Of a DNA stretch of 31,592 bases, positions 12,666 to 21,327 are shown piece after piece. Source of the DNA: Pseudomonadota bacterium (GTDB taxonomy: Bacteria; Pseudomonadota; Gammaproteobacteria; Burkholderiales; Rhodocyclaceae); assembly GCA_041158545.1 (NCBI GenBank), contig JBEBBF010000234.1:1-31592 (forward strand), given 5' to 3'. Position numbers and translations under genes: made by a program. The notes beneath the pieces were generated by a model, which was not told where the DNA came from, made no database searches, and saw nothing but the letters and a program-made list of their open reading frames with translations. Every line of letters begins with the position of its first letter. The first letter of the stretch is position 1.

Positions 12666-12860
12666 CCGCCACCGGTGCGGCAGGAACAGTCGTCGCGAAA
12701 CCCTGTCGATGCGGGGGCGGATGCTTGCAGGCGGCACGGCGGTTTTTCCGGCGAAAAGCCGCCAAATTGCCGTCGCCCGCGGGAAATGGCCCGTGATTTC
12801 CTTTAAACCCGCCGGCCTGCTAGACTCGCCGCCCGTTTGCCACCCCCGGAGCCGCAAGCC

Positions 12861-14051
12861 ATGGCTGCCCTGATCCTCCTGCCCGGCAAGGAACGCTCGC
12901 TGTTTCGTCGCCATCCCTGGTTGTTTGCCGGTTCCGTCGGTCGTCTGGTCGGACGGGCGCAGCCGGGCGACACCGTCGAAATCCACGCCGACGACGGCCG
13001 GATGCTGGCGCGGGCTGCCTACAGTCCGCACTCGCAGATACGCGCCCGGGTCTGGAGTTTTGATCCGGACGAATCCATCGACGACGCCTTCTTCAAGCGG
13101 CGGGTCGCCCAGGCCGTCGCCCGGCGGCAGGCGCTGCCGGAAACCCGCGGCCAGGCCGGACTGCGGCTGATCCACGCCGAATCCGACGGCCTGCCCGGCA
13201 TCATCGCCGATCAGTATGGCGACACCGTGGTGGTGCAGCTGACCTCCGCCGGCGCCGAAAAATGGCGGAAAGCCCTGGTCGGCGCCCTGGTCAAGGCCAC
13301 CGGCTGCGCCCGCATCTTCGAGCGCTCCGATTCCGACGTCCGCGGGCTGGAGGGCCTGGAGCCGGTCACCGGCTGGCTGCACGGCGAAGCGCCGGGCGAG
13401 CCGCTCGGCATCCTGGAAAACGGCGTCCGGCTCGGCATCGACATCGCCGGGGGCCACAAGACCGGCTTCTACCTCGACCAGCGGGAAAACCGGCAGCTGC
13501 TCGGCCAGCTTTCCGCCGGCCGGGAAGTCCTCAACTGCTTCTGCTACACCGGCGGTTTCTCGCTGCAGGCCCTGGCCGGCGGTGCCGCCAGCGTGCTGTC
13601 CATCGATTCCTCCGGCCCGGCGCTGCAGCAGGCCCAGGCCAATCTGGCGCTGAATCCGCAACTGCCGGCGGCGCGGGCCGAGTGGCTGGAAGCGGACGTG
13701 TTCCAGGCGCTGCGCGATTTCCGCAAGGCCGGGCGCCAGTTCGACCTGATCGTCCTCGACCCGCCCAAGTTCGCCCCGTCCGCCGCCCATGCCGACCGGG
13801 CCGCCCGCGCCTACAAGGACATCAACCTGCTCGGCTTCCGGCTGTTGCGGCCGGGCGGGCTGCTGATGACCTACTCCTGCTCCGGCGGCATCGGCCTGGA
13901 GCTGTTCCAGAAGATCGTCGCCGGCGCCGCGCTGGATGCCGGGCGCGATGCCCGGATCGTCCGCCGCCTGGCCGGCTCCCCCGACCATCCGGTCGCGGTG
14001 AATTTCCCCGAAGGGGAATACCTGAAGGGCCTGCTGCTGCAGGTGGATTGA
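12861..14051 (+). CDS. rlmI: 23S rRNA m5C1962 methyltransferase RlmI-like
   Basis: RRHPWLF PUA start, AESDGLPG, GHKTGFYLDQRENR, VLNCFCYTGGF, LDPPKF and PEGEYLKG. Start ATG 12861 with GGAG upstream. Confidence 0.9.
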   Translation: MAALILLPGKERSLFRRHPWLFAGSVGRLVGRAQPGDTVEIHADDGRMLARAAYSPHSQIRARVWSFDPDESIDDAFFKRRVAQAVARRQALPETRGQAGLRLIHAESDGLPGIIADQYGDTVVVQLTSAGAEKWRKALVGALVKATGCARIFERSDSDVRGLEGLEPVTGWLHGEAPGEPLGILENGVRLGIDIAGGHKTGFYLDQRENRQLLGQLSAGREVLNCFCYTGGFSLQALAGGAASVLSIDSSGPALQQAQANLALNPQLPAARAEWLEADVFQALRDFRKAGRQFDLIVLDPPKFAPSAAHADRAARAYKDINLLGFRLLRPGGLLMTYSCSGGIGLELFQKIVAGAALDAGRDARIVRRLAGSPDHPVAVNFPEGEYLKGLLLQVD

Positions 14052-14061
14052 GTTTCTTCCC

Positions 14062-14343
14062 ATGATCGGGCTGCGCCGCTTCCTGCTGATCCTCGCGCTG
14101 CTGTTCAGTCAGTGGCTGGGGCTGGCGCACGCGCTGGAGCACGGCGCGGTCAAGGAAGGCGGGCAGCCGCCGCACAGTTGCAGCCTGTGTCTGCAAACCC
14201 AGGATCTGGGTAGCGCACTGCCCAGTCTGGCGGTCTTGCCGCCGCGGCTTGCACCCTCCTGTCCACCGTCGGTCAAGCCGGCCACCGCCAGCCCGGCCCT
14301 GCCGGCACCGCTGGCCCGTCAGGGCGCACCACCCCAAGCCTGA
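14062..14343 (+). CDS. DUF2946-like leader protein (93 aa)
   Basis: Hydrophobic signal-like N-terminus, AHALEH, HSCSLC, Pro-rich linker and C-terminal ARQGAPP, directly upstream of a metal-uptake OM gene. Confidence 0.7.
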   Translation: MIGLRRFLLILALLFSQWLGLAHALEHGAVKEGGQPPHSCSLCLQTQDLGSALPSLAVLPPRLAPSCPPSVKPATASPALPAPLARQGAPPQA

Positions 14344-14382
14344 ATCCCACCCGTGAAACCCGGCCGTCGTTGACGGCCGCTG

Positions 14383-14411
14383 CGCCATCGGCCTGTCGCC
14401 GGGGCGTTTTT
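14383..14411 (+). terminator. Terminator/attenuator-like hairpin between the leader ORF and OM gene
   Basis: CGCC-A-TCGGC / CTGTC / GCCGG-GGCG followed by TTTTT; preceded by a second hairpin CGGCCGTC-GTT-GACGGCCG (14361-14379). Confidence 0.45.
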
Positions 14412-14436
14412 CCGTTTGGTCTTTCAGGAGTGACCC

Positions 14437-15831
14437 ATGAAATTCAGGATTCTGCCGGGGCTGCTGGCCCTGGCCTTCCCCCTGGCCGCTGTGGCGGCCG
14501 ACAACCCGGAACTGGCGCAGATTCGCGTCCAGATCGCCGAAATGAAAACCGCCTACGAGCAACGCATCGCCGCGCTGGAAGCCCGGCTGGCCCAGGCGGA
14601 AAGCTCGGCTGCGACCGCCGCGACCACCGCCAGCCGCGCCGAGCAGCAGGTTCAGCAACACGCCCGGCCGCGCAGCGAACCGCTGGCGCCGGCGAGCGCC
14701 GCAGCCTTCAACCCCGAGGTCTCGCTGATTCTCGACGGCAAATACAGCAACCTGTCCCGCGATCCGGCCAGCTACCGTCTGGGTGGTTTCATCCCCAGCG
14801 GCGGCGAGGTCGCACCGCCGAACCGCAGCTTCGGTCTCGGGGAAAGCGAGCTGGCGATTTCGGCCAACATCGACCACCTGTTCCGCGGCAATGCCCGCTT
14901 CTCGCTGGCGCCGGACAACAGCATCGCCACCGAGGAAGCCCACATCGAAACCCTGGGGCTGGACCATGGGCTGAAGCTGAAGGCGGGGCGTTTCCTGTCC
15001 GGGATCGGCTACCTCAATCAGCGTCACCCCCACGAATGGGACTTTGCCGACGCGCCGCTGGCCTATCAGGCTTTCTTCGGCTCCCGGCTGGGTAACGACG
15101 GGGTGCAGCTGAAGTGGCTGGCGCCGACCAGCCAGTTTGTCGAACTGGGGCTGGAGCTGGGCCGCGGCGACAGCTTTCCCGGCAACGACCGCAACAAGAA
15201 CGGCAACGGCCTGAGCAGCCTGTTCGCCCATGTCGGCGGCGACATCGGGATCAGCACCGCCTGGCAGGCCGGCTTGTCCTATGTCCGCACCCAGCCCGCC
15301 GGGCGCAGTGCCAACGATCCGGTCGATAACTACGACTACCGTTTCAGCGGCGACAGCCGGACCTGGCTGGCGGATTTCGTGCTGAAGTGGGCGCCCAACG
15401 GCAACCCCGCCGAGCAGAACTTCAAGCTGCAGGGGGAATACTTCCGGCGCAGCGAGAACGGCCGCCTGTCGGTGGATGACGTCGGTAACGCCGTGGCGCT
15501 GGCGAGCGACGAGGATTTCCGCAGCCGGCAATCCGGCTGGTACGCCCAGGGGGTCTGGCAATTCACCCGCGGCTGGCGGGTCGGTTATCGCCATGACCGC
15601 CTCGATTCCGGGCGGATCGACAACGCCACGGTGGCCGCCGGCACGCTGCCGCTGCTGAGCGCCCACGCCGCCCGGGGCGATGCGCTGATGCTGGACTGGT
15701 CGCCGTCCGAGTTCTCCCGCGTCCGGCTGCAGTTCGGCCGCAACGACGCCCGCGGCCCCGGTCTGCACGACAATCAGCTGTTCCTGCAGTACATCATGAG
15801 CCTGGGTGCCCACGGCGCCCACAAGTTCTGA
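14437..15831 (+). CDS. Outer-membrane beta-barrel associated with metal (Zn-type) ABC uptake
   Basis: Signal peptide, N-terminal coiled coil, AFNPEVSLILDG, RHPHEWDF, C-terminal HGAHKF ending in Phe; SD CAGGAG; followed by ZnuA/C/B-like genes. Confidence 0.75.
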   Translation: MKFRILPGLLALAFPLAAVAADNPELAQIRVQIAEMKTAYEQRIAALEARLAQAESSAATAATTASRAEQQVQQHARPRSEPLAPASAAAFNPEVSLILDGKYSNLSRDPASYRLGGFIPSGGEVAPPNRSFGLGESELAISANIDHLFRGNARFSLAPDNSIATEEAHIETLGLDHGLKLKAGRFLSGIGYLNQRHPHEWDFADAPLAYQAFFGSRLGNDGVQLKWLAPTSQFVELGLELGRGDSFPGNDRNKNGNGLSSLFAHVGGDIGISTAWQAGLSYVRTQPAGRSANDPVDNYDYRFSGDSRTWLADFVLKWAPNGNPAEQNFKLQGEYFRRSENGRLSVDDVGNAVALASDEDFRSRQSGWYAQGVWQFTRGWRVGYRHDRLDSGRIDNATVAAGTLPLLSAHAARGDALMLDWSPSEFSRVRLQFGRNDARGPGLHDNQLFLQYIMSLGAHGAHKF

Positions 15832-15841
15832 GGAGACAATC

Positions 15842-16732
15842 ATGCGTCAATGGTGCTTATTGCTCGGCCTGCTGTGGAGCTGGCCGGCGCTGGCCTTGAA
15901 TGTGCTGGCCAGCGTGCCGGAATGGGGGGCGCTGGCCCAGGTGATCGGTGGCGACAAGGTGCAGGTCTACACCGCGACCCACGGTCTGCAGGACCCGCAC
16001 CGGATCGAGGCCAAACCTTCCTTGATCGCCCAGGCGCGCAAGGCGGATCTGGTGCTGGCCACCGGCGCCGAGCTGGAAATCGGCTGGTTGCCGCTGGTGC
16101 TGCGCGAAGCTGGCAATTCCCGCATCCAGCCGGGGCGGCCGGGTTATTTCGAAGCGGCGGCCCAGGTGGCGATGCTGGAGGTGCCGGCCCGGCTCGACCG
16201 CAGTCAGGGGGATGTCCACGCCGGTGGCAATCCGCACATCCAGACCGATCCACGCAATATCCAGCAGGTCGGCGCCGCCCTGGCCGAGCGGCTGTGCGAG
16301 CTGGACCCGGCCAATGCCGCCGCCTATCGCCAGAACTGGGGCGAGTTCAACCGGCGCTGGCAGGAGGCGCTGCAGCGCTGGGAAAAACGGGCGGCGCCGC
16401 TCCGGGGCGTGCCGGTCGTGGTGCAGCACAAGGCCTTTCCCTATCTGGAAGCCTGGCTGGGGCTGAAGCAGGTGGCGAGTCTGGAACCCAAGCCCGGCGT
16501 GGCCGCCAGTTCCGCTTATCTGGCCGAGGTGGCGATGCGGTTGCAGGCGCAGCCGGCGCGGCTGGTGCTGCGCCCGGCCTATCAGCCGGAAGGGCCGTCG
16601 CGCTGGCTGAGTGAAAAGACCGGGTTGCAGCAGGTGGTGCTGCCTTTCACCCTCGGCGGCACGCCGGAGGCCAGGGATTTGTTCAGCCTGTACGACGACA
16701 CCCTGGATCGGCTGTTGAAGGGATTGCAGTGA
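15842..16732 (+). CDS. Metal ABC transporter substrate-binding protein (ZnuA/cluster A-I family)
   Basis: DPHRIEAKPS, GAELEIGWL, GGNPHIQTDP and VQHKAFPYL; SD AGGAG; start ATG 15842. Confidence 0.88.
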   Translation: MRQWCLLLGLLWSWPALALNVLASVPEWGALAQVIGGDKVQVYTATHGLQDPHRIEAKPSLIAQARKADLVLATGAELEIGWLPLVLREAGNSRIQPGRPGYFEAAAQVAMLEVPARLDRSQGDVHAGGNPHIQTDPRNIQQVGAALAERLCELDPANAAAYRQNWGEFNRRWQEALQRWEKRAAPLRGVPVVVQHKAFPYLEAWLGLKQVASLEPKPGVAASSAYLAEVAMRLQAQPARLVLRPAYQPEGPSRWLSEKTGLQQVVLPFTLGGTPEARDLFSLYDDTLDRLLKGLQ

Positions 16733-17304
16733 GCGAAACCTTGCTCGCCGCACAGGGGCTGGTCGCCGGCTGGGAACAGCCGGTGGCCGGGCCGCTGGAT
16801 TTTGCGTTGCAGGCCGGGGAGATTGTCGGCCTGGTCGGGCCGAACGGGGTCGGCAAGAGCACGCTGCTGGCGGCGCTGGTCGGCAATGCCCGGATTTTCC
16901 AGGGGCGGATCGAGCGCCGGCCCGGCGTCCGCCTCAGCCTGCAAAGCCAGCACCTGCCGCCGCTGGCCGGCCTGCCTTTGTCCGGTCGGGAACTGCTGGC
17001 GCTGACCGGGGCGAGTGCCGTCGGCTTGCCCGACTGGCTGGCGGATTGCCTGGAGCGGCGGCTGGACCGCCTGTCCGGCGGGCAACGGCAATATCTGGCG
17101 TTGTGGGCGGTGCTGCAGGCGCCGGCGGAAGTGGTGTTGCTCGACGAGCCGAGCAATAACCTCGATCAGGCCGGCACCGCGCATCTGGCCGGGGCCTTGC
17201 GGGCGCGGGCGGCGGCGGGCGCCGGCCTGTTGCTGGTCAGCCACGATCCGGAGCTGGTCGCGGCGGTGTGCGACCGCAGGGTGATGCTGGGGGAAAGGGC
17301 ATGA
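16729..17304 (+). CDS. ABC transporter ATP-binding protein (ZnuC-like, short)
   Basis: GPNGVGKST, LSGGQ, VVLLDEP and VSHD; GTGA overlap with the SBP stop. Confidence 0.9.
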   Translation: MSETLLAAQGLVAGWEQPVAGPLDFALQAGEIVGLVGPNGVGKSTLLAALVGNARIFQGRIERRPGVRLSLQSQHLPPLAGLPLSGRELLALTGASAVGLPDWLADCLERRLDRLSGGQRQYLALWAVLQAPAEVVLLDEPSNNLDQAGTAHLAGALRARAAAGAGLLLVSHDPELVAAVCDRRVMLGERA

Positions 17305-18098
17305 GTCTCGACAGCCTCGATCTCTTCCTGCAGCCCTTTTTCACCGGGCTGTGGTTCGCCCTGCTGCTGCCGCTGCTGGGCTGCTACCTTCGCCTGCGCC
17401 AGGAATGGCTGGCGGCGCTGGCCTACGCCCACGTCGCGGCGGCGGGGGCCTTGCTGGCGATGGCGCTGAGCTGGCCGCTGGGGCTGGGTGGCTTTGCCGC
17501 CGCCGGGCTGGCGGCGCTGGGGCGGCGGCCCCTGGCGGCCCGGCATGGGCAGGGCACGGTCTTCGCCCTCTACCTGCTGGCGGGCTGGGCGGCGGCGGTG
17601 CTGCTGGTGGCCAACCTGCCGACCGCCGAACAACTGGGTCACGCGCTGTTCGATGGTCAGCTGTATTTCACCGACCGGTTGCAGCTGTGGATCGGCGGCC
17701 TGTGGTGCCTGGGGGCGCTGCTGGTGCTGCGCCGGCTGTCCCGCTCGCTGTTGCTGGGGCAGCTGTTTCCGGAATTCTTCCGCGCCCGCCAGTTGCCGGC
17801 CTGGCCGGCCCAGGTTGGCTTCGACCTGCTGGCGGCGGGCAGTCTGGCGCTGGGGACGATGACCCTGGGGGTCATGGCGACCTTTGCGCTGGTGTTCATC
17901 CCGCCCTGGCTGGCGTTTTCCCGTGCCGGCAACTGGCGCCGCGGGCTGCTGACCGCGCTGCTGGTCGGGGTCGGCAGCTATCTCGGCGTCTTCGTTGCGG
18001 CGCTGGTTTTCGACCAGGCTTTCGGCCCCTTGCTGGTATTGGGTCTGGTTGGCGTGGGCCTGGTCATGGGTTCCATCCGGTCGTCGCGATCCCGGTGA
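17301..18098 (+). CDS. Metal ABC transporter permease (ZnuB-like)
   Basis: 265-aa hydrophobic protein with LAALAYAHVAAAG and LFDGQLYF; ATGA overlap with the ATPase. Confidence 0.75.
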   Translation: MSLDSLDLFLQPFFTGLWFALLLPLLGCYLRLRQEWLAALAYAHVAAAGALLAMALSWPLGLGGFAAAGLAALGRRPLAARHGQGTVFALYLLAGWAAAVLLVANLPTAEQLGHALFDGQLYFTDRLQLWIGGLWCLGALLVLRRLSRSLLLGQLFPEFFRARQLPAWPAQVGFDLLAAGSLALGTMTLGVMATFALVFIPPWLAFSRAGNWRRGLLTALLVGVGSYLGVFVAALVFDQAFGPLLVLGLVGVGLVMGSIRSSRSR

Positions 18099-18172
18099 TT
18101 TTTTACGCCAGGCCGTATTTACATTGCGCTGCGGTCAGTGCTACAAACCCAGCTCCTCTGCGCGCCAAAACC

Positions 18173-19408
18173 ATGGTCTTTTCGATCTTCAAAAAAACGC
18201 CTCCGCCGAACACCATGCCCAAGCGGCCTGCGGCGACCCCGCGTCCGATGGCCTTGCGGGATCCGGCGACGCCGAGTCGTTTTCCCCGTCCCAGCGGGCC
18301 GGAAAGCCGCCCGCCGCAGGGGCTGGCTGCCGATGCGGATGACCTCGATTTCACCCACCACGCCGATGGCGACAGTCTGGCGGTCGCGGAAGAGGGACTG
18401 GGCGTCGAGGTCGAAGGCATTCAGGTCGAACACGATGTGGACCCGATTGCGGTCTATCTGGAACAGGCGGCGATCCTCTACGCCAACGGTCAGGACGCTT
18501 CGGCCCGGACCACGCTGCAGACCGCGGTGCGCCGCTCCCTGGGGCCGGAAGCCGAGCCCTTGTGGCGGATGTTGCTCGACCTGCTGCAATTGCAGGGCGA
18601 CCACCTGGCCTTCGAAAAGATGGGGCTGGTCTTCGCCCAGCATTTCGAAACCTCCCCCCCGGCCTGGCGCAGCAGCGACAGCGAAGTGCGCCAGGACGAT
18701 TCCGGTTCGCTGCAGCTGGTCTTGCGCGGGGTGGTGGTCGGCCAGAGCGCGGAACTGCGCCGGCTGGGCGAGGCGGTGGACAAGCACCAGAACATCAGCC
18801 TGGACTGCGGTCAACTGATCAGCCTGGACAGCGAGGCCTGCCGGCTGCTGTCCGACTTGCTGCAAAAGGCGCGGCGCGGCGCCGCCGGCATCGGCCTGGT
18901 CGATGTGGAAACCCTGATCGGCCGGCTGGAAAAACGGGCCGTGGCCGGGAGTGCCGAGGATGGCCCCAGCTGGCTGCTGCTGCTGGAGCTGTACCAGTTG
19001 CTCGGCCGTCAGGAAGATTTCGAGAACAAGGCGGTGGATTACGCCGTCACCTTTGAAGTGTCGCCCCCTTCCTGGGAGGCCACCGGCAAGCTGGTGGTCC
19101 AGGTGCAGCAGAGCGCCCAGGCCGCGGCGGGCGACGAGTTTTACGTGCTGCAGGGCGAGTTCCGCAACGCCCGTTTCCCGGAACTCCAGGATTTCATCGA
19201 CCACTGCCATCTGCCGCAGGTCATCGTCGATTGCAGCGCGCTGCAACGGCTGGATTTCGCCAGCGCCGGCACGCTGGTGCAACTGCTGGCGCCCTACCAT
19301 CGCCAGGGGCGGGAATTCCAGTTCCGGCATCCCAACCGGCTGGTCGCAGCGCTGCTCCACCTGGTCGGCCTGGAAGAATTCGCCCGTATCGTTTTCGCCA
19401 AGAATTAA
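18173..19408 (+). CDS. STAS-domain protein with internal duplication (411 aa)
   Basis: Start MVFSIFKK; two STAS-like segments ([13 protein letters not shown]; [15 protein letters not shown]), each preceded by a 38-aa repeat ending FExSPPxW; 19 nt upstream of hslV. Confidence 0.8.
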
Positions 19409-19427
19409 CCCCACTTCAGGACAATCC

Positions 19428-19964
19428 ATGGAGCAATATCACGGCACCACCATTCTGTCGGTGCGCCGCGGCAACGTCGTCGCCATGGGCGGCGATGGCC
19501 AGGTCACCCTCGGCAGCATCGTGGTCAAGGCCACCGCCCGCAAGGTCCGGCGGCTGTATCAGAACAAGATCCTCGCCGGTTTCGCCGGCGGCACCGCCGA
19601 CGCCTTCACGCTGTTCGAGCGCTTCGAAGCCAAACTGGAAAAGCACCAGGGCAACCTGCTGCGCTCCGCGGTCGAACTGGCCAAGGACTGGCGCACCGAC
19701 CGCATCCTGCGCCGGCTGGAGGCGATGCTTTCGGTCGCCGACCGGGAGAACTCCCTGATCATCACCGGCAACGGCGACGTGCTGGAACCGGAACACGGCA
19801 TCGTCGCCATCGGCTCCGGCGGCGCCTACGCCCAGAGCGCCGCCCGCGCCCTGCTCGACAACACCAGCCTCCCCCCCGTGGAGATCGTCACCAAATCCCT
19901 GGAAATCGCCGGCGACCTCTGCATCTACACCAACCGCAATTTCACGCTGGAAACGCTGGATTGA
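19428..19964 (+). CDS. hslV: ATP-dependent protease peptidase subunit HslV
   Basis: [14 protein letters not shown] (N-terminal Thr nucleophile), [16 protein letters not shown] and CIYTN. Confidence 0.98.
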
Positions 19965-19992
19965 TCCGGCACCGGCGGGAGCACGTTTGACC

Positions 19993-21327
19993 ATGACCCA
20001 GATGACCCCCCAGGAAATCGTTTCCGAACTCGACAAGCACATCGTTGGCCAGGGCAAGGCCAAGAAGGCGGTGGCGATTGCCTTGCGCAATCGCTGGCGG
20101 CGTTCGCAGGTGGCGGAGCCGCTGCGCCAGGAAATCACGCCGAAGAACATCCTGATGATTGGGCCGACCGGGGTCGGCAAGACCGAAATCGCCCGGCGGC
20201 TGGCGCGGCTGGCCAATGCGCCGTTCATCAAGATCGAGGCGACCAAGTTCACCGAGGTCGGCTATGTCGGCCGCGACGTGGATACCATCGTCCGCGACCT
20301 GGCGGAAATCGCGATCAAGGCCGGGCGGGAGCGGGCGATGCAGGCGATGCGCATCCGGGCGGAGGATGCCGCCGAGGAACGCATCCTCGACGTGCTGCTG
20401 CCGCCGGCCCGCAACGCCGGCTTCTTTGCCGAAAACGGCCCGAGCGAGGATAGCGCCACCCGGCAGAAATTCCGCAAGCGGCTGCGCGAAGGCGAGCTGG
20501 ACGACAAGGAAGTCGACATCGAGGTCAGCCTGCCCGCGATGCAGGCGGAAATCTTCGCGCCGCCGGGGATGGAGGAACTGACCAACCAGATTCAGGGCAT
20601 GTTCCAGAACCTGGGCGGCGGCCGCAAGAAGAGCCGCAAGATGAAGATTCGCGAGGCGCGCAAGATCCTGACCGACGAAGAGGCCGGCAAGCTGGTCAAT
20701 GACGAGGAGGTCAAGCTGGAGGCGCTGCAGAACGTCGAGCAGAACGGCATCGTCTTCCTCGACGAACTCGACAAGATCGCCAGCCGCAGCGAGCACGGCG
20801 GCGCCGAAGTCTCCCGCCAGGGGGTGCAGCGCGACCTGCTGCCGCTGGTCGAAGGCACGACGGTGTCCACCAAGTACGGGATGATCAAGACCGACCACAT
20901 CCTGTTCATCGCCTCCGGCGCCTTCCACCTCGCCAAGCCCTCGGACCTGATTCCGGAACTGCAGGGCCGCTTCCCGATCCGGGTCGAGCTGGATTCCCTG
21001 TCGGTCGCCGACTTCGAGCGCATCCTGACCCAGACCGACGCCTGCCTGACCCGGCAATACCAGGCGCTGCTGGCCACCGAGGGCGTGGCGCTGGAATTCG
21101 CCGACGACGGCATCCGCCGGCTGGCGGAGATCGCCTATCAGGTCAATGAAAAGACCGAAAACATCGGCGCCCGCCGGCTGTACACGGTGATGGAACGGCT
21201 GCTGGAAGAAGTCTCCTTCAGCGCCGGCAAGCCCGGTTGCGACGCGGTGCAGGTCGATGCGGCCTACGTCAATGGCCGGCTGGGCGAACTGGCCGGCGAC
21301 GAAGACCTGTCCCGCTTCATCCTCTGA
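19993..21327 (+). CDS. hslU: ATP-dependent protease ATPase subunit HslU
   Basis: [39 protein letters not shown] and [10 protein letters not shown], ending LSRFIL. Start could be TTG 19987. Confidence 0.98.

What the first reader, a model, noticed from the sequence alone, without database searches (positions are those of the whole stretch)
14062..14343. Metal-sensing ribosome-arrest leader candidate with a non-canonical RQGAPP motif
Seen: signal-like N-terminus, H-x3-H-x9-H-x-C-x2-C cluster, Pro-rich spacer and C-terminal ARQGAPPQA, 93 nt upstream of an OM barrel plus metal ABC operon. Knowledge: DUF2946 proteins such as Bordetella CruR and Rhodobacter CutF combine CxxC with an RAPP-like C-terminus and control the downstream gene post-transcriptionally in response to copper. 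Inference: the same design may control a Zn/Ni/Co-type ABC system here, using a variant arrest motif (GAPP, Arg shifted two residues upstream) and extra His ligands. That would extend this mechanism to another metal and transporter class.
Basis: partly seen in the sequence, partly recalled or inferred. Interest (0 to 1): 0.7.

Follow-up and report, generated by a model that had tools for sequence, protein, structure and literature searches.

The report
Zinc-operon leader peptide with odd stall motif
This 93-codon gene is a real, widely conserved leader peptide, a short cousin of the copper-sensing CruR/CutF stalling peptides, that heads a zinc-import operon and whose last codons base-pair with the ribosome-binding site of the next gene; it probably switches that operon by pausing the ribosome in response to metal.

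Summary
ORF 14062-14343 encodes a signal-like N-terminus, H23/H27/H38/C40xxC43 and a C-terminal ARQGAPPQA. It lies 93 nt upstream of a porin-like outer-membrane protein and a ZnuA-type ABC importer.

It belongs to a short (about 93-105 aa) sister family of DUF2946. The family profile hit 129 of 401 genomes of the order. Q17, H23, H27, C40, C43 and the PP pair are invariant, and the second Cys lies 47-48 residues before the first Pro, as in CruR. Pfam's DUF2946 model does not hit this protein.

In the 71 loci examined, the downstream genes identified are all of zinc-uptake type: porin plus ZnuA-like binding protein, ZnuD-like receptors, or ZrgA systems.

New here: across genera, the leader's last codons and stop codon pair with the Shine-Dalgarno site of the next gene. 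The paired bases lie 8-15 nt after the first Pro codon, where a ribosome stalled on PP would cover them. This is a SecM/CutF-type output.

The window's motif has Gly where the Arg reported as irreplaceable normally sits. Only 17 of 134 relatives lack that Arg.

Stalling and the identity of the metal are inferred, not shown. Verdict: a new variant of a known kind.

The parts
14062..14343 (+). Leader ORF, 93 codons plus TGA. It is a member of a short sister family of DUF2946 (CruR/CutF-like).
   Evidence: Translation. Family found by profile search. Seven invariant positions in 71 copies.
14062..14133 (+). Signal-peptide-like segment, residues 1-24 (MIGLRRFLLILALLFSQWLGLAHA). It contains invariant Q17 and H23.
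   Evidence: Read directly from the sequence; no signal-peptide predictor was available. Q17 and H23 conservation.
14128..14190 (+). Putative metal-ligand cluster: H23 (14128-30), H27 (14140-42), H38 (14173-75), C40 (14179-81), C43 (14188-90).
   Evidence: H23, H27, C40 and C43 are invariant in 71 of 71 genomic copies. H38 is kept only in the window's subclade (9 of 60).
14317..14334 (+). C-terminal motif R86-Q87-G88-A89-P90-P91. This is the presumed pause site, with P90 in the P site and P91 in the A site, by analogy with CruR.
   Evidence: PP is invariant and Q87 is invariant in the subfamily. The motif census finds 17 of 134 relatives without Arg. The CruR toeprint comes from PMC12992588.
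14339..14349 (+). 5' strand of the anti-Shine-Dalgarno helix. CCUGAA (14339-44, last Ala codon plus the UGA stop) pairs with UUCAGG. CCA (14347-49) pairs with UGG.
   Evidence: Minimum-free-energy fold. Duplex energy and family-wide covariation.
14361..14407 (+). Two G+C-rich internal hairpins (14361-79 and 14382-14407) enclosed by the long-range helix. The second is followed by a U-rich run.
   Evidence: An inner hairpin is predicted in most related spacers folded.
14417..14430 (+). 3' strand of the helix: UGG (14417-19) and UUCAGG (14423-28). It overlaps the Shine-Dalgarno AGGAG (14426-30) of the outer-membrane protein gene.
14437..15831 (+). Porin-like outer-membrane protein, 464 aa, with an N-terminal coiled-coil-like segment and a C-terminal Phe. 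It is the first regulated gene.
   Evidence: No Pfam family. More than 7,900 homologues. The ESM Atlas model resembles porin O/P-like barrels. A homologue follows the leader in 60 of 71 loci.
15806..16732 (+). ZnuA-family periplasmic binding protein (start codon uncertain). The three His ligands of the zinc type are conserved (DPH, NPH, QHKAFPY).
   Evidence: Pfam ZnuA, E 7e-44. Best solved relatives are zinc ZnuA proteins; alignment.
16729..17304 (+). ABC ATPase, 191 aa, AztA-like.
   Evidence: The score is below NCBIfam's cut-off.
17268..18098 (+). ABC-3 family permease.

Best explanation
The ORF is a cis-acting regulatory leader peptide, homologous to the CruR/CutF class of metal-sensing nascent peptides. 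I propose it controls translation of the zinc-uptake operon that follows it.

Shown by computation:
- It is a conserved coding gene.
- It shares the CxxC-47/48-residue-xxPP architecture of DUF2946.
- Its family sits in front of zinc-acquisition genes.
- The leader's last codons and stop codon pair with the Shine-Dalgarno site of the next gene. The paired bases lie 8-15 nt after the first Pro codon, which is the stretch of mRNA a ribosome covers when it pauses with Pro-Pro in its P and A sites.

Inferred mechanism:
- At low zinc, the ribosome pauses at G-A-P90-P91, holds the helix open, and the porin and ZnuA-type importer genes are translated.
- At sufficient zinc, the emerging H23/H27/(H38)/C40/C43 cluster binds the metal. 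This happens either at the tunnel exit or on the periplasmic side of the Sec channel.
- The resulting folding force releases the pause, the ribosome terminates, the helix re-forms, and the ribosome-binding site is hidden.

The input logic is that of CruR (metal relieves the stall and an uptake system is shut off). The output device is that of SecM and CutF (a stalled ribosome unmasks a ribosome-binding site).
For: Real and conserved:
- 171 cluster representatives and 129 of 401 genomes in 57 of 168 genera.
- Q17, H23, H27, C40, C43, P90 and P91 are invariant in 71 of 71 copies.

Architecture:
- The second Cys lies 47 (91 cases) or 48 (37 cases) residues before the first Pro, out of 134.
- The same distance is 48 in CruR and 46-49, mostly 48, in 20 bona fide DUF2946 proteins.
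- 2-5 residues follow PP in 122 of 134.
- hhalign against DUF2946 gives E 4.6e-5.

Zinc context:
- Leader, then porin-like protein, then ZnuA-like protein in 16 of 20 extended loci.
- One leader directly precedes ZrgA, an ABC ATPase, an FtsX-type permease and DUF3299.
- Four receptors behind such leaders score best as ZnuD-like, 287-382 bits, against 54-76 bits for the copper receptor model.
- The binding protein keeps the three His ligands of zinc-type ZnuA.

Output device:
- Duplex energy of leader end with its own Shine-Dalgarno region averages -14.6 kcal/mol, against -9.6 across loci; 0 of 5000 permutations reach this.
- With one locus per genus (n=25): -14.65 against -9.18; 0 of 20000 permutations.
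- The Shine-Dalgarno core is at least 75% paired in 51 of 56 loci. In 53 of 56, the partner bases end within 15 nt of the first base of the first Pro codon.
- The triplet complementary to the stop codon tracks the stop codon. TTA is present in 7 of 11 loci with a TAA stop and 7 of 42 with TGA. TCA is present in 23 of 42 with TGA and 3 of 11 with TAA.

Precedents:
- CruR and CutF.
- CruR arrests with the two Pro codons in the P and A sites.
- A Cys2His2 zinc finger releases a SecM arrest when Zn2+ is present (PMC4571824).
Against: - The window's motif has Gly where Arg sits in RAPP/RGPP. Every substitution of that Arg weakened or abolished arrest in ApcA, ApdA and ApdP; the same paper cites this for SecM and found that CruR R139A loses arrest. 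Strong arrest is therefore doubtful for this particular copy.
- In the window alone, the helix is modest: -12.2 kcal/mol, reached by 9% of shuffles. The fold of the whole spacer is not exceptional (z -1.35).
- The same H/H/C/C ligand set occurs in every member, and CxxC is a classic Cu(I) site. The leader sequence alone cannot name the metal.
- I found no data on expression, translation or stalling. No RNA run holding this stretch is listed.
- The leader has no Shine-Dalgarno sequence and no visible promoter in the window.
Confidence: 0.62

Rival explanations
1. Same device, but the metal sensed is copper (or the sensor is promiscuous), as in CruR and CutF. The operon would then be shut off or turned on by copper rather than zinc.
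For: CxxC is the copper-sensing motif of CruR, and the CxxxC motif plays that role in CutF. The family is homologous to DUF2946. Ligand residues do not differ between members in different genomic contexts.
Against: The downstream systems I identified are of zinc type: ZnuA with three His ligands, ZrgA with DUF3299, and ZnuD-like receptors. Where I compared positions (for example G045, G030, G018, G085), the canonical DUF2946 copies sit at other loci than the short-family copy. The invariant His pair plus Cys pair fits a tetrahedral Zn site.
Confidence: 0.15
2. In this lineage the sensor has decayed. With the key Arg lost, the leader no longer arrests. It acts only as a constitutive translational-coupling element, in which any ribosome reaching the stop codon briefly opens the helix, or it is on its way to being lost.
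For: The Arg is reported to be irreplaceable in tested arrest peptides. Only 17 of 134 relatives lack it. The window's helix is among the weaker ones.
Against: RQGAPP and related Arg-less motifs persist in sequences only 45-55% identical to each other. All other invariant residues and the 47-residue spacing are intact in them. Their anti-Shine-Dalgarno helices are also retained, at -15 to -19 kcal/mol in L002, L004 and L006. CutF stalls on GPPP without such an Arg.
Confidence: 0.15
3. The product is mainly a secreted small metal-binding protein (a periplasmic chaperone for the ZnuA-like protein or the porin). The C-terminal PP and the mRNA pairing are incidental.
For: It has a signal-like N-terminus and conserved His and Cys residues. 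It is always co-located with periplasmic metal-handling proteins.
Against: The middle of the protein is poorly conserved, whereas the distance from the Cys pair to PP is fixed to one residue. RxPP near a C-terminus is strongly avoided in ordinary proteins (PMC12992588). The covarying helix between the leader's end and the next gene's Shine-Dalgarno site has no role in a chaperone model. H23 lies before the likely signal-peptidase site. CruR was not detected in proteomic analyses and CutF is undetectable in vivo.
Confidence: 0.06
4. Control is by Rho-dependent transcription termination in the spacer, as proposed for CruR, or by the hairpin plus U-run acting as an intrinsic attenuator, rather than by masking of the ribosome-binding site.
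For: Two terminator-like sites are found at 14388-14414, against 0.4 expected. Many related spacers have a G+C-rich hairpin followed by U-rich sequence. CruR works through Rho.
Against: The spacers are short (mostly 57-93 nt, against 162 in CruR) and highly structured, which is poor for Rho loading. Much of the U-rich run is the partner of the A-rich bases after the stop codon within the long-range helix. A ribosome paused at PP would not reach the inner hairpin.
Confidence: 0.1

Closest known systems
CruR (Bordetella pertussis Bp2923), DUF2946/PF11162
   Same: It is an exported small upstream ORF that heads a metal-uptake operon. It has an invariant CxxC placed 47-48 residues before a C-terminal xxPP, followed by a few more residues. 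The proposed logic is also shared: the metal relieves the stall and the uptake genes go off.
   Different: The window protein is about 50 residues shorter and lacks the upstream semi-conserved Cys. It has an invariant Q-x5-H-x3-H next to the signal peptide instead. The Pfam model does not recognise it. It has Gly in place of the RAPP Arg. Its spacer is short and structured, with an anti-Shine-Dalgarno helix, rather than a 162-nt spacer with Rho-dependent termination. Its context is zinc-type, not copper-type.
CutF (Rhodobacter capsulatus) and the 'CutF-like' proteins of Ozturk et al. 2023
   Same: It has a Sec signal, a Cys motif and a Pro repeat near the C-terminus without the RAPP Arg. Stalling melts an mRNA structure that hides the ribosome-binding site of the next gene. 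The window protein meets all the operational CutF-like filters: under 150 aa, PP within 15 residues of the end, and a same-strand neighbour.
   Different: CutF has CxxxC and PPP. It turns on a copper-detoxifying oxidase when copper is present. Here the target is an importer, so the opposite sign is expected. That paper's main text does not mention ZnuA, zinc or ABC neighbours, and its held supplementary files do not mention ZnuA, ZrgA or porin.
SecM-secA and RAPP/RGPP arrest peptides (ApdA, ApdP)
   Same: There is a C-terminal arrest core ending in Pro at the A site. The nascent chain is subject to pulling force. The stalled ribosome exposes the downstream Shine-Dalgarno site.
   Different: Those peptides monitor protein export, not metal. 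Their Arg is reported to be essential, and it is missing here at the equivalent position.
ADR1a zinc finger fused to the SecM arrest peptide (engineered force sensor, Nilsson et al. 2015)
   Same: A His2Cys2 site folds with Zn2+ on the ribosome and releases an arrest. This shows that the proposed physics works.
   Different: It is artificial. The optimum linker is 24-26 residues, so folding occurs inside the tunnel. Here the spacing is 47-48 residues and the chain carries a signal peptide.

Membership tests
Pfam DUF2946 (PF11162) | Match to the family HMM above the gathering score (23.7 bits) | tested here: not met
   There is no hit even at E<=10. A six-frame search of the window's own genome finds nothing at this place. 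32 of 129 relatives match at E<=0.01, and one short-family member reaches 26 bits (G084). hhalign against 20 true members gives probability 68%, E 4.6e-5.
Pfam DUF2946 (PF11162) / CruR | Conserved CXXC | tested here: met
   C40-S-L-C43. Both Cys are invariant in 71 of 71 copies.
Pfam DUF2946 (PF11162) / CruR | C-terminal RAPP, about three residues before the end | tested here: not met
   The window has G88-A-P-P followed by two residues. Arg is at position 86 instead. 117 of 134 relatives have Arg in the canonical place.
Pfam DUF2946 (PF11162) / CruR | Spacing of about 45 residues (within one or two) between CXXC and RAPP | tested here: met
   There are 44 intervening residues. C43 to P90 is 47, against C93 to P141 = 48 in CruR.
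Pfam DUF2946 (PF11162) / CruR | Export signal at the N-terminus | tested here: inconclusive
   By eye there is an Arg-Arg, a hydrophobic core and A-H-A. No signal-peptide predictor was available.
Pfam DUF2946 (PF11162) / CruR | Upstream conserved Cys (C51 in CruR; invariant 'ExC' in 20 members examined) | tested here: not met
   It is absent. The short family has Q17, H23 and H27 instead.
RAPP/RGPP-type ribosome arrest peptides | Arg two residues before the P-site Pro | tested here: not met
   Gly88 (GGC) sits where relatives have CGC or CGG. The Arg is reported to be irreplaceable.
RAPP/RGPP-type ribosome arrest peptides | Ala or Gly followed by Pro-Pro near the C-terminus of a small exported protein | tested here: met
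   A89-P90-P91, two residues from the end.
RAPP/RGPP-type ribosome arrest peptides | Demonstrated translation arrest | not testable with these tools
   This needs toeprinting or in vitro translation.
CutF-like proteins (operational definition of Ozturk et al. 2023) | Under 150 aa, PP within 15 residues of the C-terminus, a Sec signal, and a same-strand downstream gene within 1000 nt | tested here: met
   93 aa, PP at positions 90-91, a 93-nt spacer and a same-strand neighbour. The signal was judged by eye only.
SecM/CutF-type output (stall unmasks a ribosome-binding site) | An mRNA helix that sequesters the downstream Shine-Dalgarno site, with its other strand inside the footprint of the stalled ribosome | tested here: met
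   Window: 14339-44 pairs with 14423-28. Family-wide support comes from permutation tests and geometry. On the window alone the helix is weak (9% of shuffles reach it).
ZnuABC/AztABC-type zinc importer (downstream operon) | A cluster A-I binding protein with three His ligands, an ABC-3 permease and an ATPase | tested here: met
   Pfam ZnuA, ABC-3 and ABC_tran. His residues are conserved in the DPH, NPH and QHKAFPY motifs when aligned to Synechocystis ZnuA. All NCBIfam equivalog cut-offs are missed, so it is a relative of ZnuA/AztC, not an assigned ortholog.

The most novel reading that the evidence does not exclude
The short family is a natural zinc-responsive nascent-chain sensor. In this reading, a Gln/His/His/Cys/Cys site held at a fixed 47-48 residues from the peptidyl-transferase centre folds on Zn2+ as it leaves the ribosome or Sec channel. 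It pulls the chain out of an arrest and lets an anti-Shine-Dalgarno helix re-form. This would be post-transcriptional zinc control of import systems, alongside or instead of Zur. In addition, the window's clade would use a new arrest core (R-Q-G-A-P-P) that works without the Arg considered irreplaceable.
Probability: 0.3. Interest if true: 0.8.

Novelty: new variant of a known kind. Interest (0 to 1): 0.6.

Why it matters
Metal-sensing arrest peptides have so far been shown experimentally only for copper (CruR and CutF). Published surveys linked the wider family mostly to copper genes and, by context only, to nickel/cobalt proteins.

This work defines a sister family that Pfam mostly misses and that sits in front of zinc-acquisition systems. 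These include a very large, unnamed porin-like family. Surveys that classify neighbours by Pfam domain or by annotation would be expected to miss it, because the first downstream gene has no Pfam domain and is mostly annotated as hypothetical.

The covarying helix between the leader's end and the next gene's ribosome-binding site gives a concrete, testable output mechanism for dozens of genera.

The Arg-less RQGAPP clade is a natural experiment on what a ribosome-arrest core needs. If it is confirmed, zinc homeostasis in many Betaproteobacteria would have a translational control layer in addition to Zur.

Tried and rejected
- Pfam and NCBIfam scans of the leader gave no hit, even at E<=10.
I used the genome search instead.
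- A word-index homology search found only three relatives. The exhaustive profile search was needed.
- Zur box: no TGTTAT/ATAACA-type half-sites lie within 220 nt upstream of 34 leaders. This was a crude pattern search, so Zur control is not excluded.
- Sigma-70 promoter scan of 13600-14600 found nothing.
- RNA evidence: no RNA holder is listed for window 13800-15000.
- Contrast test: I asked whether receptors behind canonical DUF2946 genes are copper-type. Only N-terminal fragments were in the loci, and they gave generic TonB-receptor hits, so the contrast is not established here.
- An intrinsic-terminator reading of the inner hairpin was considered and ranked low (see rivals).
- I did not predict a structure of the leader, because no coordinates are returned to measure ligand distances. 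I did not run a complex prediction, because no protein-protein claim is made.
- The supplementary files of Ozturk et al. 2023 that are held as text do not mention ZnuA, ZrgA or porin. Most of their data files are not held.
Full report
OBSERVATION

Translating 14062-14343(+) gives a 93-residue protein. Its sequence is MIGLRRFLLILALLFSQWLGLAHA / LEHGAVKEGGQPPHSCSLCLQTQDLGSALPSLAVLPPRLAPSCPPSVKPATASPALPAPLARQGAPPQA.

The one correction is that the gap between H27 and H38 is ten residues, not nine.

ATG 14062 is the only start codon in the open frame. It lies 10 nt after the stop of an rlmI-like SAM methyltransferase gene and has no Shine-Dalgarno sequence.

After a 93-nt spacer come four genes:
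- a 464-aa protein with no Pfam family;
- a ZnuA-family binding protein (E 7e-44);
- a 191-aa ABC ATPase;
- an ABC-3 permease.

Behind these lie a STAS protein gene and hslVU.

The 464-aa protein has more than 7,900 homologues, mostly called 'hypothetical' and sometimes mislabelled 'TonB-dependent receptor'. Its ESM Atlas model resembles porin O/P-like barrels.

IS IT A GENE, AND WHICH FAMILY?

Pfam and NCBIfam give nothing for the leader, even at E<=10. The DUF2946 model finds nothing at this place in the window's own genome, which is a 62.6%-complete metagenome-assembled genome.

A word-based search found three relatives of 45-55% identity. All three have the same neighbours: methyltransferase, leader, 461-aa protein, ZnuA, ATPase, permease.

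A profile of these four, run against 1.84 billion proteins, found 171 representatives. Nearly all are 90-105 aa long. Almost all have a CxxC and a C-terminal xxPP, with the second Cys 47 or 48 residues before the first Pro. In CruR that distance is 48 (C93 to P141). [quoted passage not shown]

Of 129 relatives, 32 match Pfam DUF2946 at E<=0.01.

In a sample of 401 genomes of the same order, the family profile has an uninterrupted match in 129 genomes, covering 57 of 168 genera.

The Pfam model finds its own, longer members in 39 of 151 genomes of the order. Where I compared positions (for example G045, G030, G018 and G085), these sit at loci other than the short-family copy. One locus (G084) is found by both searches.

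Twenty bona fide DUF2946 proteins from these genomes are 111-144 aa long. They carry an extra invariant Cys ('ExC') and the same Cys-to-Pro distance, 46-49 and mostly 48. A profile-profile comparison aligns the two families from the CxxC to the C-terminus (probability 68%, E 4.6e-5).

I conclude that the leader belongs to a short sister family of DUF2946. The C-terminal half is homologous. The N-terminal half differs: in 71 genomic copies, Q17, H23, H27, C40, C43, P90 and P91 are invariant.

THE C-TERMINAL MOTIF

Among 134 representatives with the canonical spacing, the motif counts are:
- RAPP: 69
- RGPP: 46
- RDPP or RSPP: 2
- no Arg at this position: 17 (GAPP 7, Q[G/A/S]PP 8, GSPP 1, HDPP 1)

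The window's subfamily has an invariant Gln three residues before the first Pro. Its usual form is (R)-Q-R-G-P-P. The window has R-Q-G-A-P-P. Codon 88 is GGC where relatives have CGC or CGG.

The variant is not a sequencing slip. It recurs in sequences that are only 45-55% identical to each other.

This matters because systematic mutagenesis found that every substitution of this Arg weakened or abolished arrest in ApcA, ApdA and ApdP. The same paper cites this for SecM, and found that CruR R139A loses arrest in vitro. RGPP and RAPP are the strongest cores (PMC12992588).

On the other side, CutF stalls on E-G-P-P-P without such an Arg, in an EF-P-sensitive way (bioRxiv 2025.02.05.636593).

Whether RQGAPP arrests is therefore open. 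It is the most interesting single question about this copy.

GENOMIC CONTEXT AND THE METAL

In 20 loci extended to 8 kb, 16 have leader, then porin-like protein, then ZnuA-like binding protein. ATPase and permease homologues follow in six of them, and an ABC-3-type permease alone follows in several others.

In a wider set, 60 of 71 leaders precede a homologue of the porin-like protein.

One genome (G084) has two leaders in tandem. The first heads ZrgA, an ABC ATPase, an FtsX/MacB-type permease and DUF3299. Pfam describes ZrgA as a zinc-uptake family, and from my own knowledge this gene set resembles the Vibrio ZrgABCDE zinc-uptake system. The second leader heads porin, ZnuA and a permease. Another locus ends with DUF3299.

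Four TonB-dependent receptors that follow short-family leaders all score best against the ZnuD zinc receptor model, at 287-382 bits. The copper receptor model scores 54-76 bits. Both are below the curated cut-offs.

The window's binding protein is closest to solved zinc ZnuA proteins. In the alignment it keeps His in the three ligand motifs DPH, NPH and QHKAFPY. The assignment of these motifs as the zinc ligands rests on my knowledge of ZnuA structures.

Roy et al. and Ozturk et al. link DUF2946 and CutF-like genes mainly to copper genes, and by context to HupE/UreJ nickel/cobalt proteins. The Ozturk main text does not mention ZnuA, zinc or ABC transporters, and the Fujiwara paper does not mention zinc, ZnuA, porins or ABC transporters. 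The supplementary files of Ozturk et al. that are held as text do not mention ZnuA, ZrgA or porin. A literature search listed no paper joining CruR/CutF-like with ZnuA or zinc uptake among its top results. The first neighbour here has no Pfam domain, so neighbour classification by Pfam would not register it.

Zinc is therefore the best-supported metal by association. It is not proven. The ligand set is the same in all contexts, and CxxC also suits Cu(I).

THE OUTPUT DEVICE

Folding each spacer from 12 nt before the leader's stop codon to the next start codon gives a consistent picture. The leader's last codons and its stop codon pair with the Shine-Dalgarno region of the next gene. This closes the whole spacer around one or two G+C-rich hairpins.

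In the window, CCUGAA (14339-44) pairs with UUCAGG (14423-28), which overlaps the Shine-Dalgarno AGGAG at 14426-30. CCA (14347-49) pairs with UGG (14417-19).

I tested this without fitting an alignment to the structure:
- The duplex energy between each leader end and its own Shine-Dalgarno region averages -14.6 kcal/mol. For leader ends paired with the regions of other loci it averages -9.6. For a window shifted upstream into the leader it averages -8.7. None of 5000 permutations reaches the observed mean.
- With one locus per genus (25 loci), the figures are -14.65 against -9.18, and none of 20000 permutations reaches the observed mean. The locus's own partner ranks first or second of 25 in 17 cases.
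- The triplet complementary to the stop codon tracks the stop codon. TTA is present in 7 of 11 loci with a TAA stop and 7 of 42 with TGA. TCA is present in 23 of 42 with TGA and 3 of 11 with TAA.
- The Shine-Dalgarno core is at least 75% paired in 51 of 56 loci. In 53 of 56, its partner bases end within 15 nt of the first base of the first Pro codon, mostly at +8 to +15.

CruR arrests with the two Pro codons in the P and A sites. A ribosome protects roughly 15 nt of mRNA downstream of the P-site codon (general knowledge). A ribosome paused on PP would therefore cover exactly the strand that masks the next gene's ribosome-binding site. This also explains the short, Leu/Phe-rich tails after PP: CUC and UUC codons supply the anti-Shine-Dalgarno bases.

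For the window alone, the helix is unremarkable: -12.2 kcal/mol, reached by 9% of shuffles, and the spacer fold has z -1.35. The case rests on the family.

MECHANISM

Shown by computation:
- a conserved coding leader;
- homology and shared geometry with CruR and DUF2946;
- a zinc-type context;
- a covarying anti-Shine-Dalgarno helix placed within the footprint of a ribosome on PP.

Inferred:
- The ribosome pauses at A89-P90-P91 and keeps the ribosome-binding site open.
- Metal binding by H23/H27/(H38)/C40/C43 on the emerging chain creates a pulling force that ends the pause.
- The helix then re-forms and translation of the importer stops.

For an importer this sign (metal means off) is the sensible one, and it is the sign found for CruR. 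The output resembles SecM-secA and CutF-cutO rather than CruR's Rho-dependent termination.

An engineered precedent exists. The Cys2His2 zinc finger ADR1a releases a SecM arrest only when Zn2+ is present (PMC4571824).

The 47-48-residue distance is longer than the roughly 30 residues that span the exit tunnel. The site would therefore form outside the ribosome, possibly at the periplasmic mouth of the Sec channel, as proposed for CutF. H23 lies before the likely signal-peptidase site, which suggests the signal segment is part of the sensor. This is speculation.

RIVALS

The rivals are copper as the ligand, a decayed sensor in this Arg-less clade, a secreted chaperone, and transcriptional attenuation or Rho. 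Each is weighed in its own section.

VERDICT

This is not a member of Pfam DUF2946 by the model's own test, and it fails the RAPP feature, but it is built like CruR/CutF and related to them. I rate it a new variant of a known kind. Its features are a zinc-associated short family, a demonstrable mRNA output helix, and a natural Arg-less motif.

Noticed in passing
Loci L002, L004, L005, L006, L015, L016, L021, L025, L027, L032 and others (30 nt before the leader start); window 14030-14061: Only 7 of 70 leaders have a Shine-Dalgarno-like sequence. 25 of 70 have a -10-like hexamer (TAGAAT, TAAACT, TACACT and similar, 12 of them with a TGn extension) ending 4-10 nt, mostly 6-7 nt, before the start codon. 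The same pattern occurs in 12 of 70 at a control offset. This suggests that many leaders are translated from leaderless or nearly leaderless mRNAs. The window has no such element: its ATG lies 10 nt after the methyltransferase stop, so coupling or read-through transcription is likely.
   Followed up: partly
L041 (G084:C1:1066282-1074863) and G337 (three matches): Some genomes carry two or three short-family leaders. In G084, one heads ZrgA, an ABC ATPase, an FtsX-type permease and DUF3299. A second, 3.5 kb downstream, heads porin, ZnuA and an ABC-3 permease. This forms one zinc-acquisition island with two leader-controlled units.
   Followed up: partly
window 14437-15831 (P0002): The porin-like outer-membrane protein belongs to a very large family (over 7,900 homologues at E<=1e-10). 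The family has no Pfam model. Its members are mostly annotated as hypothetical and sometimes wrongly as TonB-dependent receptor. It has an N-terminal coiled-coil-like segment, seen as weak Sugarporin_N and FapF hits. Its regular pairing with ZnuA-like proteins suggests a dedicated outer-membrane zinc channel.
   Followed up: partly
window 12837-21327; L002, L035, L036, L042, L050, L052, L053: The leader-porin-ZnuA unit often sits at a fixed chromosomal site. In the window's closest relatives (L002, L035, L036) it lies between an rlmI-like methyltransferase gene and a STAS-domain gene followed by hslVU. hslVU also lies close downstream in several more distant genera.
   Followed up: no
window 16729-17304: The ABC ATPase is only 191 aa and overlaps the permease ORF by 37 nt. 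The short length is conserved in relatives (192 aa in L002) and matches the length of the AztA model. It is therefore probably genuine rather than truncated.
   Followed up: no
window 14006-14020: There is an inverted repeat, TTCCCC-GAA-GGGGAA, inside the last codons of the methyltransferase gene, about 45 nt before the leader start. The corresponding coding sequence is conserved in relatives. I did not test whether it is a regulatory site.
   Followed up: no
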